Part shown: piece by piece, positions 19,425 to 22,008 of the stretch
How positions within the stretch are numbered: the stretch's first letter is position 1
How the letters are laid out: every line of letters begins with the position of its first letter
UHGV virus genome: UHGV-1547525
Origin: a virus
Strand: one strand, 5' to 3'
DNA: 22,008 nt
Program-made: the position numbers and the translations under genes
The notes under the pieces: model-generated
Databases searched by the model: none
Seen by the model: the letters and a program-made list of their open reading frames with translations, nothing else
Told to the model about the DNA's origin: nothing

Positions 19425-19711
19425 AAATAACCTTCCTTTCTCCAGATTTCTTGTGTGCGAAAAACACCTTCTGCATGCATCAGGCGTAATTCTTCTTTGG
19501 TGTAATCGCTGGTTTTTACCCGCCCGTCGATTAGATCGTGGCATGAGCTACAGGCTATCGCCGCCTGCATATCGTGTGGTTTTGTCGCTGTTCCGCACGT
19601 CCCCGCCAGCCTGTAATGCGCCAGCACAGAGGTTTCGGGATTGTGATTGCAGTAGCCAGGGATTCTGATCTGGCACATCTGGCCTTTAGCCGCTTTACGT
19701 AAATTCACCAT
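19421..19711 (-). CDS. YbcO-like (DUF1364) putative zinc-binding nuclease of the nin region
   Basis: 96 aa with CQIRIPGYC ... CSSCH cysteine pairs. Length and motifs resemble the prophage-encoded YbcO family as I recall it. Start overlaps the upstream stop (TAATG). Confidence 0.55.
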   Translation of the reverse strand: MVNLRKAAKGQMCQIRIPGYCNHNPETSVLAHYRLAGTCGTATKPHDMQAAIACSSCHDLIDGRVKTSDYTKEELRLMHAEGVFRTQEIWRKEGYL

Positions 19712-20310
19712 TACGCAAACTCCAGTAGTTGTGCGGCCACATTTTCAACTTCCTCCTGAGAGGAGAATTTACGGAACAGGATCCAGTTCCACAGCACATT
19801 CAGTACAGATTTATAAACCTGCTGAAACTCGACTTCGTCCATATTCGCAAAAGCGATGGATTTTGCCCGACGCCCACGGCTACCGTCCGGATAAATATGC
19901 TCGGTGTAAAATCCGGCCTGAATGGTTACCCACTCGCGGAAAGCCTCAAACGACTTTAGCAACGCCGTATCCCGGGTTCTACGAGTCGCAACGGTGTTAA
20001 GGTATTGCTCTGCGGCATCACTCAGGGCTGGAGTGTGTTCCCGACCTACTGATTCGCACAGGTAATCAACGAAGCCCGATACCAGTTTTCGTTCGCGAGG
20101 CGTGATCGCCCCACCGACCGGAGTCCAGTAATCGAATCCCAGTTGCAGGAGTTTGAAAAAACGCTTGTGGAATGCGTAGTTACGCACACGCTTAAAGTCT
20201 GCGTGTATCCACTCACCTATTTTGATTTGATGCAAAAAATCGCAACTCTCCGGCGTCGCCGGGAGAAGTAAACCAGAAGAGGTTTGTTTGACCAGTTGTA
20301 TATGCGCCAT
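19711..20310 (-). CDS. nin-region hypothetical protein (DUF1367-like, tentative)
   Basis: 199-aa ORF, ATG at 20310, translationally coupled to the YbcO-like gene. Family assignment is from memory only. Confidence 0.35.
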   Translation of the reverse strand: MAHIQLVKQTSSGLLLPATPESCDFLHQIKIGEWIHADFKRVRNYAFHKRFFKLLQLGFDYWTPVGGAITPRERKLVSGFVDYLCESVGREHTPALSDAAEQYLNTVATRRTRDTALLKSFEAFREWVTIQAGFYTEHIYPDGSRGRRAKSIAFANMDEVEFQQVYKSVLNVLWNWILFRKFSSQEEVENVAAQLLEFA

Positions 20311-20590
20311 TTCTCAATCTCTCGATGGCGCAGCGCAGCAGATGCCAGTTGTTCAGGCTGACGAATAAAGTATAAATAAACTGGCTATGGTGTAAAGCCC
20401 CACATAGCATGAACAAACACTACATATCAAATAGCTGGTACAAGGATAGAAATACGACATTTATTATTAAAAACGATTAGATAAATTACATTTTAATGTT
20501 ATGCAAAAGTTCTTTTTTATCATAACATTTCAATAAAAGCATTACAGATGCAATCATCCCGTCATCATCAATTATTTAAGGTGGTTAAAC

Positions 20591-20683
20591 ATGGAAAATA
20601 ACAAGTTCGCACATCTCGCTCCTTTTTTATCCGTAATCCTTTTCGCTTGTTTTTTTTATATGGGCATTATTTTTATAAAGTAG
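20591..20683 (+). CDS. 30-codon small hydrophobic peptide ORF (hypothetical)
   Basis: ATG preceded by AAGGTGG at about 8 nt. Translation MENNKFAHLAPFLSVILFACFFYMGIIFIK contains one ~21-residue hydrophobic stretch. Lies in an AT-rich intergenic island; not in the ORF track. Confidence 0.3.
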   Translation: MENNKFAHLAPFLSVILFACFFYMGIIFIK

Positions 20684-21080
20684 CCACATGATAAGTTGCT
20701 GGAATCATATTTCCCACTCAAGTCATTAACATTTGATAAGATATATCTAAAAGGACGCCTTTACATTATTTATGTGTATATAATTTATTTATATACACAG
20801 TAAAGGCATCCTGGGAAAATATTTATCGTTAAAAAATACATCATAAATAATTAAGCTGAAATTTCAGAACACAACTAATACACACAATAAGGTTCAGTAA
20901 CAATAATCTATGTGGACTACATCGAGATTTTTTGATTAAACTTTAATAACTTATTCCTAACACACAGAATGCATAAACTAAAAGTAAAACAAATAGTTAT
21001 ACGAAAAACAACCATATTTATTATATCTTCTCCTCTAATCAACATATCAATTATGTGTTTCATAACAGCTTGACATAACC

Positions 21081-21115
21081 CTCAAAAACACGCATTTATA
21101 ATGCATGTTTTTGAG
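21081..21115. promoter_or_regulatory. 15-bp inverted repeat (14/15 match, 5-bp spacer) overlapping the TATAAT element and abutting the Shine-Dalgarno of the cupin-like gene
   Basis: CTCAAAAACACGCAT-ttata-ATGCATGTTTTTGAG; an upstream TTGACA at 21070-21075 and TATAAT at 21097-21102 are 21 bp apart. Confidence 0.5.
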
Positions 21116-21124
21116 GAGGTGGTT

Positions 21125-21463
21125 ATGACACACAAGAGAATTCCTAAAGATTGGGTAATCAAACGCTCAACTCCGTTCTTCACAAAAGAGAACGTACCTT
21201 CAGCGTTATTAACACATCATAATACAGCAGCAGGTGTTTTTGGGCAGTTGTGCGTAATGGAAGGCACTGTAACATATTATGGTTTTACTGATGAGAATGC
21301 TACTGAACCGGAGATAAAAGTAGTCATTAATGCTGGCGCTTTTGCAACAAGCCCACCACAATACTGGCACCGTGTTGAACTAAGCGATGATGCTCAGTTT
21401 AATATTAACTTTTGGGTCGCTCCAGACTTCTCGGGCGAAAAAGTCTATAGCACCAAAAAATAG
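21125..21463 (+). CDS. Small cupin-like protein, DUF1971-like (YeaR/TehB-C-terminal-like; tentative)
   Basis: 112-aa ORF from ATG at 21125 preceded by GAGGAGGTGG; the ORF-track start at 21101 lies inside the palindrome. Size and the ...RSTPFF...H...G...Y...W... pattern recall the DUF1971 family. Flanked by its own control region and terminator; plus strand, opposite to the phage genes. Confidence 0.45.
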   Translation: MTHKRIPKDWVIKRSTPFFTKENVPSALLTHHNTAAGVFGQLCVMEGTVTYYGFTDENATEPEIKVVINAGAFATSPPQYWHRVELSDDAQFNINFWVAPDFSGEKVYSTKK

Positions 21464-21492: not shown

Positions 21493-21529
21493 AGACCCGG
21501 CAGGGCTATCCCCGACGGGTCTCATTTTT
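21493..21529 (+). terminator. Intrinsic terminator after the cupin-like gene
   Basis: GACCCGGCAGGG-CUAU-CCCCGACGGGUC hairpin (two mismatches) followed by UCAUUUUUGU, about 30 nt after the stop. Confidence 0.5.
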
Positions 21530-22008
21530 GTAAATATATTGGTTCTACATTGACAGGAGACTTCAACCATAAGAAGTAATCTGAATACTTGAGCAATAAA
21601 TTTACTTAAGATTAATGAGCGCACCTTGCCGGACAAAGATAAACCAAGGTAACACCTTTTTTCTAGCCAGTATGTAATCAATCAGAAAGCCGCTCCATAA
21701 GAACAACAGCAAGACAATAAATTGCCATTACAGCCGCAATAGCCAGCGCACATTTGAGAACCAGCACGACAACCCCCTGTATTAGACGCACACCAGTCCT
21801 GATAAATATGAGGCTGTCTCGTCAGTGATTCAATACAACTATTGGGTATAGTTTCTGTGATTTTGTTCTGTAGAAATGGAACACAACAACCAGTCACCAC
21901 CAGCACTTCTTTTAATACGCAAAGTCCGACACAAGCTAACCTTTTAGTCCGCTTTGAGCGAGGAACGGAAGTTGGGACTACAGTAGAAATTTTAGCTGAA
22001 TAAGGAAT

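What the first reader, a model, noticed from the sequence alone, without database searches (positions are those of the whole stretch)
20400..21060. AT-rich non-coding island containing a strongly initiated 30-codon hydrophobic peptide ORF
About 650 bp of AT-rich DNA with no long ORF separates the minus-strand phage genes from the plus-strand cupin-like gene. Inside it a 30-codon ORF (20591-20683) has a near-consensus AAGGTGG ribosome-binding site and encodes a single-helix peptide (MENNKFAHLAPFLSVILFACFFYMGIIFIK). Its size, hydrophobicity and location in a prophage moron island fit a small membrane peptide or type I toxin-like element, and it is invisible to standard ORF calling.
Basis: partly seen in the sequence, partly recalled or inferred. 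Interest (0 to 1): 0.5.

Follow-up and report, generated by a model that had tools for sequence, protein, structure and literature searches.

The report
Conserved unannotated prophage micropeptide gene
The short reading frame is a slightly damaged (frameshifted) copy of a 28-codon gene for a greasy membrane-type peptide that about a fifth of complete E. coli genomes carry in their lambda-like prophages, that no annotation pipeline calls, and whose function (possibly a small toxin) is still unknown.

Summary
Window 20311-21105 is 30% G+C against about 50% in the flanks. It has no ORF longer than 48 codons. A 30-codon ATG ORF (20591-20683) sits 6 nt after AAGGTGG.

On its own this is weak: 5.7% of shuffles give an equivalent ORF with a ribosome-binding site. 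Comparison makes it real. A homologous ORF of exactly 28 codons occurs in 1175 of 5426 complete E. coli genomes, is never annotated, and is intact in 179 of 179 other loci sampled (17 nucleotide alleles). Two clades differ at 17 of 84 nt but only 6 of 28 residues. dN/dS is 0.16 in this frame and about 1 in four of the other five. Homology between clades ends at the stop codon.

The window copy is the only frameshifted one sampled (a T7 run became T8), which replaces the last 7 residues.

No Pfam, NCBIfam, PHROG or Rfam family matches, and none of eight alleles looked up (the window's and seven 28-residue ones) is in a 15-billion-protein collection.

Best reading: a self-contained moron gene for a small membrane peptide at the replication/nin junction of Rac/Qin-type prophages. 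It often lies next to hokD. A type I toxin role with an antisense RNA is possible but rests on weak motif evidence only.

The parts
20311..21105 (.). AT-rich island (30% G+C) between the nin-region genes (minus strand) and the DUF1971 cargo gene (plus strand).
20591..20683 (+). Small ORF as present in the window: 30 codons plus TAG. Codons 1-21 (through F21) match the T7 allele of strain 3359; codons 22-30 (YMGIIFIK) are out of the ancestral frame.
20591..20678 (+). Span of the ancestral 28-codon gene in the window. The ancestral TAA is at 20676-20678 and is reached only if one T of the T8 run is removed. Family consensus: MENNK[FS]AH[LY]APFLSVILF....WALFL.
20650..20657 (+). T8 homopolymer that carries the +1 frameshift. 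Closest relative (strain 3359) has T7 in frame; most clade-A copies have TTGTTTT.
20578..20584 (+). Shine-Dalgarno AAGGTGG, 6 nt before the ATG. It is AAGGTGA or AAAGTGA in clade B.
20462..20507 (.). 46-nt non-coding block that is nearly invariant between clades (2 differences), although synonymous sites of the ORF differ by about 50%. It begins with TATTAT (20462-20467), the best candidate -10 for the small gene. In clade B the site reads TTGCCG-16-TATTAT.
20495..20529 (.). Conserved inverted repeat AATGTTATG-N17-CATAACATT. The spacing is fixed. The apical stem differs in sequence between clades but stays complementary. No strand preference in folding energy.
20369..20396 (-). Promoter-like site TTTACA-16-TATACT reading toward the DUF1367 gene. 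It is the only sigma-70-like site found at the same place in all three upstream sequence types.
20571..20598 (-). Candidate antisense promoter overlapping the start codon: TTTCCA-15-AATAAT in the window, TTTCCA-16-TATGAT or CATAAT in clade B. Weak evidence.
20458..20475 (-). Weak 5-bp hairpin followed by a T-rich tail on the minus strand. In clade A the pairing survives only as G.U wobbles on the minus strand, plus one double change. Possible 3' end of an antisense RNA. Weak evidence.
20753..20811 (-). Long hairpin (GGACGCCTTTAC...GTAAAGGCATCC) with an inner AT stem. It is fully paired on the minus strand and followed there by TTTT (20752-20749). Candidate minus-strand terminator shielding the small gene.

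Best explanation
The ORF is a frameshifted copy of a genuine, so far unannotated 28-codon gene. The gene is carried as a small self-contained cassette at the junction between the replication and nin/Q modules of Rac/Qin-type lambdoid prophages of E. coli and Shigella.

The cassette is about 370 bp of AT-rich DNA. It starts at the first nin-region gene and ends at the small gene's stop codon. It is oriented against the phage early-right operon.

Inferred mechanism: the gene is transcribed from its own promoter (best candidate -10 is TATTAT at 20462-67, giving a leader of about 115 nt that contains a conserved hairpin). It is translated from the AAGGTG-type ribosome-binding site. The product has a polar 10-residue N-terminus followed by an 18-19-residue hydrophobic stretch that runs to the C-terminus. 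Such a peptide would insert into the inner membrane as a single helix.

What it does there is not known. I consider a membrane-active role most likely, either toxin-like or a modulator of a host membrane protein.

The window copy has a +1 T slip that replaces the last 7 residues (IWALFL becomes YMGIIFIK). It is therefore either a damaged allele or a homopolymer sequencing error.

Shown: conservation, reading-frame integrity, codon-position pattern, module boundary, absence from annotation and from known families.
Inferred: promoter, transcription in the lysogen, membrane insertion, function.
For: 1. Distribution. A 181-nt query around the ORF matches 1175 of 5426 complete E. coli genomes, with 'none' under annotated features in every row listed. 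Distant matches (77-81% identity) cover only the SD plus the ORF.
2. Frame integrity. All 179 other loci sampled from IMG/VR and annotated genomes keep exactly 28 codons, across 17 nucleotide alleles and 13 peptide alleles.
3. Codon pattern. Clade A versus clade B shows 17 nt differences but only 6 amino-acid changes. NG86 dN/dS is 0.16 in the ORF frame and 0.95-1.75 in four other frames. The wobble-aligned antisense frame also scores 0.15, but it is not kept open.
4. Permutation. P(at most 6 amino-acid changes) = 0.003, and P(ORF stays intact) = 0.215.
5. Within-clade polymorphisms are 13 non-synonymous to 9 synonymous, against roughly 4:1 sites. All replacements are among A/V/I/L/F/C/S/T/G, plus K/N and F/Y.
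6. Module boundary. Homology between clades stops within a few bases of the stop codon, although the downstream context differs: the hokD terminator, a bidirectional terminator shared with a convergent gene, or AT-rich DNA.
7. The left-hand gene can differ too (DUF1367, or a 92-aa protein plus DUF968), while the intergenic block and the ORF are retained.
8. Two downstream contexts place a G+C-rich hairpin about 20 nt after the stop.
Against: - There is no expression, ribosome-occupancy or peptide evidence. The ORF was not found in the held (partly truncated) supplementary lists of translated small ORFs of O157:H7 Sakai, and I do not know whether Sakai carries it.
- The coding signal rests on one deep split plus shallow polymorphisms, all within E. 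coli/Shigella.
- No homologue was detected elsewhere. That test was narrow: one exact-pattern scan of species representatives, and a 30-residue HMMER search that can only find called proteins.
- No convincing sigma-70 promoter is shared by both clades. In clade A only the -10 is recognisable.
- The SD is weaker (AAAGTGA) in the commonest allele.
- A 46-nt block upstream is more conserved than the ORF itself, so part of the constraint on the cassette is non-coding.
- Hydrophobicity is expected of any ORF on a T-rich strand.
Confidence: 0.65

Rival explanations
1. Type I toxin-antitoxin module. The 28-residue peptide is a membrane-damaging toxin. An antisense RNA of about 110-115 nt, transcribed on the minus strand from a promoter overlapping the start codon, covers the toxin's 5' leader and ends at the weak hairpin at 20475-20458. 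This is the Ldr/Rdl-type arrangement. This is a more specific version of the best explanation, not an alternative to the gene being real.
For: - Size, polar N-terminus and hydrophobic C-terminal helix resemble ShoB, Ibs, TisB and DinQ (my knowledge of those families).
- The cassette occupies the same hot spot as hokD. In clade B it abuts the hokD terminator.
- In E. coli 042 the consensus scan finds three matching elements: a plus-strand promoter TTGCCG-16-TATTAT, a minus-strand promoter TTTCCA-16-TATGAT over the ATG, and a minus-strand terminator-like hairpin overlapping the plus-strand -10.
- A -10-like hexamer is kept at that minus-strand position in all clades.
- The hairpin is maintained in clade A by G.U pairs that work only on the minus strand, plus one double change.
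- The long leader is partly predicted to pair with the SD: mean unpaired probability 0.19-0.39.
- The 46-nt invariant block could be the 3' module of such an RNA.
Against: - No hit to Hok/Gef, Ldr, Ibs, TisB or any other Pfam, NCBIfam or PHROG model even at E up to 10.
- No hit to Sok, Rdl, Sib, IstR, OhsC, Orz or any other Rfam model.
- The terminator-like stem is only 5 bp with an 8-nt loop, and such sites occur 0.7 times per shuffle.
- Promoter-like hexamers are common in 30% G+C DNA. In the window, 4 were found against 6.2 expected.
- The central hairpin shows no strand preference.
- Toxicity is untested.
- The cassette is single-copy (median 1 per genome), unlike many chromosomal type I families.
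Confidence: 0.2
2. The conserved unit is a non-coding regulatory element, and the ORF is incidental. The candidates are a transcript antisense to the early-right (pR) read-through toward nin/Q, acting like lambda paQ or OOP RNA, or a terminator and promoter region for the nin genes.
For: - The cassette is oriented against the early-right operon, directly upstream of the nin/Q genes.
- The most conserved parts are non-coding: the 46-nt block, the inverted repeat with fixed spacing, and the minus-strand promoter-like site at 20396-20369.
- The last 19 nt of the ORF are invariant in 59 of the 60 unique sequences aligned, even at synonymous sites; two further alleles seen (one TTA>GTA, one both GCA>GCG and TTA>GTA) change 1-2 bases there.
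- The SD plus ORF alone is near chance in one sequence.
Against: - A purely non-coding element does not explain 7 purely synonymous third-position differences between clades (one more third-position change shares a codon with a replacement), dN/dS of 0.16 specific to this frame (among open frames), or 179 of 179 intact 28-codon copies.
- It also does not explain why homology ends exactly at the stop codon.
- The two readings are not exclusive: the transcript could do both.
Confidence: 0.12
3. The ORF is a chance reading frame, or the remnant of a longer gene such as a lipoprotein signal peptide, sitting in junk AT-rich spacer.
For: - 5.7% of shuffles give an equivalent ORF.
- Weak hits of the hydrophobic stretch to signal-peptide regions of an Rz-like spanin and of Lp6.6.
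- Some alleles have a lipobox-like LFAGC or LFAC.
Against: - The length is a constant 28 codons in two clades about 20% apart.
- A HMMER scan of 1.84 billion representative proteins finds no longer relative, only two other frameshifted copies.
- Clade B lacks a lipobox (FVLC).
- The purifying-selection signal argues against junk.
Confidence: 0.03

Closest known systems
Type I toxins of enterobacteria (Ldr/Rdl, Ibs/Sib, ShoB/OhsC, TisB/IstR, DinQ/AgrB, ZorO/OrzO, Hok/Sok)
   Same: - A peptide under 60 residues dominated by one hydrophobic helix.
- A stand-alone AT-rich cassette with a long leader.
- Same prophage hot spot as hokD, and often adjacent to it.
- Candidate antisense promoter and hairpin over the leader, as in Ldr/Rdl.
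   Different: - No sequence similarity to any of these toxins or to their antitoxin RNAs.
- The antisense RNA is only a weak prediction.
- Toxicity is untested.
- Single copy per genome.
- No charged C-terminal tail, unlike TisB, ZorO and Hok.
Small inner-membrane proteins of E. coli found by ribosome profiling or tagging (for example YohP, YshB, YncL, MgtS-class proteins)
   Same: - 20-40 residues with a single predicted helix.
- Missed by gene callers.
- Conserved length, with conservative substitutions inside the helix.
   Different: - Encoded by prophages and absent from K-12. Qin carries rem at this position.
- So it was never covered by the K-12 small-protein surveys.
- No expression evidence yet.
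Lambdoid prophage morons (bor, lom, the hokD/relBE cassette, and the DUF1971/YeaR-like gene next door)
   Same: - Low G+C compared with the phage backbone.
- Inserted between functional modules, with an orientation independent of the phage operon.
- Own promoter-like and terminator-like signals.
- Mosaic boundaries at the gene ends.
   Different: - Much smaller than described morons.
- It travels with the nin-proximal intergenic region rather than as a freely exchangeable insert.
Lambda paQ and OOP antisense transcripts
   Same: Transcription directed against the early-right operon, upstream of or within the path to Q.
   Different: - Those RNAs are non-coding and, for paQ, CII-activated.
- Here a reading frame is under selection.
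- No TTGC-N6-TTGC CII box was seen by eye in the aligned upstream sequence; no pattern search was run.

Membership tests
Type I toxin-antitoxin system (generic definition) | Small (under 60 residues) hydrophobic, membrane-directed peptide ORF | tested here: met
   28 residues. The last 18-19 are uncharged and mostly hydrophobic in all 13 alleles.
Type I toxin-antitoxin system (generic definition) | Antisense or divergent small RNA gene with its own promoter and terminator, base-pairing with the toxin mRNA | tested here: inconclusive
   Consensus matches for a minus-strand promoter over the ATG and a 5-bp hairpin with a T-tail. All are weak in AT-rich DNA, and no transcript data are available.
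Type I toxin-antitoxin system (generic definition) | Growth arrest or membrane damage on overexpression, neutralised by the RNA | not testable with these tools
   Requires an experiment.
Hok/Gef, Ldr, Ibs, TisB, Fst and other curated toxin families (Pfam, NCBIfam) | Significant match to the family profile | tested here: not met
   No relevant hit for four alleles at E up to 10 in Pfam and NCBIfam. The only NCBIfam hit was Lp6.6 lipoprotein at E = 0.027.
Known antitoxin or prophage sRNAs in Rfam (Sok, RdlD, Sib, IstR, OhsC, OrzO, DicF and others) | Covariance-model match on either strand | tested here: not met
   No hit at gathering score in the whole window. In 20200-21300 at E up to 10, only noise (miRNA and snoRNA models).
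Protein-coding gene (operational criteria) | Reading frame kept open, with an excess of synonymous change, across diverged copies | tested here: met
   179 of 179 copies intact. dN/dS 0.16 versus about 1 in control frames. Permutation P = 0.003.
Protein-coding gene (operational criteria) | Evidence of translation (ribosome profiling, tagging, mass spectrometry) | not testable with these tools
   Not in the text-held supplements of the Sakai RIBO-seq study. It is unknown whether Sakai carries the cassette.
Bacterial lipoprotein or Rz1-like spanin | Lipobox [LVI][ASTVI][GAS]C followed by a mature domain | tested here: not met
   Lipobox-like LFAGC or LFAC occurs only in clade A; clade B has FVLC. 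Only 7-8 residues would remain after cleavage. The PHROG Rz-like hit is E = 0.009-0.24 over 14 residues.
Prophage moron | Compositionally distinct insert between phage modules with its own expression signals, variably present among related phages | tested here: met
   30% versus about 50% G+C. Present in 22% of genomes, with alternative cargo (rem) at the same site in K-12 Qin. Terminator hairpins lie downstream in two contexts. The promoter is only predicted.

The most novel reading that the evidence does not exclude
The cassette is a previously unrecognised type I toxin-antitoxin family of E. coli prophages. It would consist of a 28-residue membrane toxin plus an antisense RNA of about 110 nt covering its leader. 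It would sit beside (and in many strains converge on) hokD at the replication/nin junction, and act in prophage maintenance or in abortive infection and superinfection exclusion.
Probability: 0.17. Interest if true: 0.6.

Novelty: new member of a known kind. Interest (0 to 1): 0.42.

Why it matters
- About one in five complete E. coli genomes, including pathogens such as EAEC 042 and APEC O1, carries a conserved gene that no pipeline annotates. At 28 codons it is short enough that gene callers would be expected to skip it (their length cut-offs are from my own knowledge, not checked here). It is also absent from K-12, where small proteins have been mapped.
- It adds a concrete, testable candidate to the short list of prophage-encoded micropeptides.
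- If it is toxic, it would be a new type I toxin family in a hot spot already known for hokD.
- Practically, a single-genome ORF call here would have recorded a frameshifted, probably non-native peptide.

Tried and rejected
1. Profile searches of four alleles against Pfam, NCBIfam and PHROGs gave nothing meaningful.
2. Rfam at gathering score and at E up to 10 gave only noise.
4. Exact look-up of 8 alleles in the 15-billion-protein collection, and of the window allele among gene positions, found them absent.
5. HMMER of the 30-residue window peptide against 1.84 billion representatives found only two other frameshifted copies and no longer or distant relative.
6. tblastn against INPHARED phages found only four induced E. 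coli prophages.
7. An exact-pattern scan of GTDB species representatives found only Shigella flexneri plus one chance hit.
8. Full-text searches for the peptide, for DNA strings of the conserved block and for the ORF 5' end found no relevant paper. The Sakai small-ORF supplements had no match.
9. K-12 Qin was checked as a possible annotated homologue. It has rem instead and lacks the ORF.
10. Alternative reading frames were rejected. The 53-codon GTG frame and the 58-codon antisense ORF seen in clade B lie in frames with dN/dS of 0.95-2.4 and are not kept in clade A.
11. I looked for strand preference of the conserved inverted repeat, to decide between an mRNA leader and an antisense RNA. There was none: mean -6.46 versus -6.43 kcal/mol.
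12. A long-range pairing between the 5' conserved block and the 3' end of the ORF, proposed by RNAalifold, has no covariation and was not pursued.

Full report
**1. Observation**

The window is part of a Rac/Qin-type lambdoid prophage of E. coli.
- On the minus strand lie a TrkH/TrkG-type transporter gene, an Rz gene, a DUF1133/Q-like antiterminator, YbcO (DUF1364) and DUF1367 (19711-20310). The gene order matches annotated relatives.
- From 20311 to about 21105 the G+C content falls to 30%, from 47-52% in the flanks.
- No ORF in that stretch exceeds 48 codons.
- At 21125 a plus-strand DUF1971 (YeaR/TehB-like) gene begins.

Taken alone this is weak evidence. 5.7% of dinucleotide-preserving shuffles of the island contain an ATG ORF of at least 28 codons with an SD match of at least 5 nt. 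I would also expect an ORF on a T-rich strand to be hydrophobic by default; that point is inference and was not tested.

**2. Relatives**

The island is present at over 99% identity in 291 complete E. coli genomes. It is present in some form in 852, with no annotated feature under it.

A 181-nt query centred on the ORF finds 1175 of 5426 genomes. The distant matches (77-81% identity) cover only query positions 17-37 to 140. That corresponds to the ribosome-binding site plus the ORF.

In those genomes (E. coli 042, APEC O1, EA13) the segment lies about 100 nt beyond the stop of hokD, in convergent orientation. It encodes MENNKSAHYAPFLSVILFVLCC[AV]WALFL, 28 residues. The closest relatives of the window encode MENNKFAHLAPFLSVILFACCFIWALFL, also 28 residues.

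Two pattern scans of IMG/VR, together with the annotated loci, gave 179 further copies. They comprise 17 nucleotide alleles and 13 peptide alleles, and every copy has exactly 28 codons.

**3. The window copy is frameshifted**

- Most clade-A copies read GCT TGT TGT TTT ATA TGG.
- Strain 3359 reads GCT TGT TTT TTT ATA TGG (a T7 run, in frame, C21F).
- The window has T8 (20650-20657). This moves the reading into the +2 frame and yields ...FFYMGIIFIK, with a TAG at 20681-20683.
- No complete E. coli genome carries this allele; the best match is 99.4% with one gap.
- HMMER against 1.84 billion representative proteins finds only two other sporadic frameshifted copies (36 and 30 residues). They were called by gene finders only because the shift made them reach 30 codons.
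- The T8 run is therefore either a private mutation or a homopolymer sequencing error.

**4. Is it coding?**

- Clades A and B differ at 17 of 84 nt. Seven differences are purely synonymous third-position changes, an eighth third-position change shares a codon with a replacement, and only 6 residues differ.
- NG86 gives dN/dS of 0.16 in the ORF frame (0.28 for a second allele pair). In frames +2, +3, -1 and -3 it is 0.95-2.4.
- The antisense frame whose wobble positions coincide with those of the ORF also scores low (0.15). That is expected, and this frame is not kept open: it runs 27, 20 or fewer than 20 codons in different copies.
- Placing 17 substitutions at random on allele A gives at most 6 amino-acid changes in 0.3% of trials. 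It leaves the ORF intact in 21.5% of trials.
- Within clades I count 13 non-synonymous and 9 synonymous variants, against a site ratio of about 4:1. Replacements are conservative (A/V/I/L/F/C/S/T/G) and cluster at residues 19-23 of the helix.
- Homology between the clades ends within a few bases of the stop codon, whatever lies downstream.

I conclude that the frame is under purifying selection, with the relaxed, hydrophobicity-preserving pattern typical of a transmembrane segment. The caveat is that all of this comes from one deep split and shallow variation inside Escherichia/Shigella.

**5. Anatomy of the cassette**

The unit shared by all copies runs from the start of the first nin-region gene to the small ORF's stop, about 370 bp. 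The nin-region gene is DUF1367 in the window and in 042, and a 92-residue protein plus DUF968 in APEC O1.

It contains:
- (a) A minus-strand promoter-like site, TTTACA-16-TATACT (20396-20369), facing the nin gene. It is the only sigma-70-like site found at the same position in all sequence types.
- (b) A 46-nt block (20462-20507) with only 2 differences between clades, although ORF synonymous sites differ by about 50%. It begins with TATTAT, which in clade B is preceded by TTGCCG at 16 nt. This is the best candidate promoter for the small gene and implies a leader of about 115 nt.
- (c) An inverted repeat, AATGTTATG-N17-CATAACATT (20495-20529), with invariant spacing. Its apical stem has a different sequence in each clade but stays complementary. 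Folding energies show no strand preference.
- (d) A diverged stretch, then the SD and the ORF. The predicted unpaired probability of the SD is 0.19-0.39.

Downstream, three arrangements occur:
- Clade B has the hokD/relBEF terminator hairpin (AACCCGCCGAAGCGGGTT) about 20 nt after the stop.
- A third context has a 13-bp bidirectional terminator shared with a convergent gene.
- The window type has only a weak AT hairpin. After about 70 nt comes a long hairpin (20753-20811) that is perfect on the minus strand and followed there by TTTT.

**6. Type I toxin hypothesis**

The arrangement in E. coli 042 is suggestive. The consensus scan returns a plus-strand promoter, a minus-strand promoter (TTTCCA-16-TATGAT) overlapping the ATG, and a minus-strand terminator-like hairpin overlapping the plus-strand -10. 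Together these would give an RNA of about 110 nt antisense to the leader, as in Ldr/Rdl.

A -10-like hexamer persists at that place in all clades: TATGAT, CATAAT or AATAAT. The hairpin is kept in clade A through G.U pairs that work only on the minus strand, and through one double change.

Against this:
- The stem is 5 bp with an 8-nt loop, and such matches occur 0.7 times per shuffle.
- Promoter-like hexamers are not enriched in the island: 4 found against 6.2 expected.
- No known toxin or antitoxin family matches.

I rate this reading at about 0.2.

**7. Comparison with what is known**

No Pfam, NCBIfam, PHROG or Rfam family applies. None of the eight alleles looked up (the window's and seven 28-residue ones) is in the 15-billion-protein collection. 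K-12 lacks the cassette, and Qin has rem at that site. This would explain why K-12 small-protein surveys would not have seen it. Full-text searches for the peptide and for DNA strings found nothing relevant.

Large intergenic small-ORF catalogues for Enterobacteriaceae exist. Such work is cited in the library but is not held there, and it may list this cluster. I could not check that.

I therefore file it as a new member of a known kind: a prophage-borne micropeptide or moron, and a possible type I toxin.

**8. Side observation**

Just right of the island, 21087-21109 (AACACGCATTTATAATGCATGTT) is an 11-1-11 inverted repeat. It is identical at 19 of 23 positions to the ytfE NsrR site listed in PMC5320621, Table 4. 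It overlaps the TATAAT upstream of the YeaR-like DUF1971 gene. Chromosomal yeaR is an NsrR target according to the same paper. The neighbouring cargo gene is therefore probably nitric-oxide responsive.

**9. Verdict**

The finding is of moderate interest: a real, widespread, unannotated micro-gene of unknown function, seen here in a damaged copy.

Noticed in passing
window 21087-21109 (palindrome 21080-21117), upstream of the DUF1971 gene at 21125-21463: AACACGCATTTATAATGCATGTT is an 11-1-11 inverted repeat. It matches the ytfE NsrR operator (AAGATGCATTTAAAATGCATCTT, PMC5320621 Table 4) at 19 of 23 positions and overlaps a TATAAT at 21097-21102. The prophage YeaR-like cargo gene is therefore probably repressed by NsrR and induced by nitric oxide, like chromosomal yeaR. 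A TTGACA at 21070-21075 is 21 nt from the TATAAT, which is too far for a canonical promoter.
   Followed up: partly
window 20753-20811: Hairpin of about 59 nt with a 12-bp G+C-containing base and an inner AT stem. It is perfectly paired on the minus strand (one G.U) and followed there by TTTT. It looks like a minus-strand intrinsic terminator inside the AT-rich island. It caused several spurious miRNA-model hits in Rfam.
   Followed up: partly
window about 21493-21530: A G+C-rich hairpin (GACCCG...CGGGTC) followed by TTTTT lies directly after the DUF1971 gene. Homology to relative L006, which carries a truncated Hok/Gef gene there, breaks down just beyond it. The DUF1971 gene thus has the promoter-gene-terminator layout of a moron.
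   Followed up: partly
L003 3230-3385, L004 3215-3370, L005 3232-3387 (hokD) and L006 4063-4188: In clade-B prophages the micro-gene converges on hokD, and the hokD terminator T-tract ends about 12 nt from the micro-gene's stop codon. In L006 a 41-residue truncated Hok/Gef ORF sits beyond the DUF1971 gene. The replication/nin junction is a recurrent site for small membrane-toxin cassettes.
   Followed up: partly
window 20917-21063 (minus strand): A 48-codon ORF, annotated as a hypothetical protein in phage vB_EcoS-666R9 (43 codons there). It differs from the relative only by non-synonymous changes and a different end, so it is probably not a gene.
   Followed up: partly
L001 8814-9928 (E. coli ET734): In this close relative the DUF1971 gene is split by an IS1X2 insertion. 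Its cargo region also holds SIR2-family, non-canonical NTP pyrophosphatase and adenosine deaminase genes, which may be an anti-phage defence cluster.
   Followed up: no
window 20369-20396 (minus strand): TTTACA-16-TATACT, about 60 nt upstream of the DUF1367 start, is conserved in every sequence type examined. It may be a pR-independent promoter for the nin/Q genes.
   Followed up: partly
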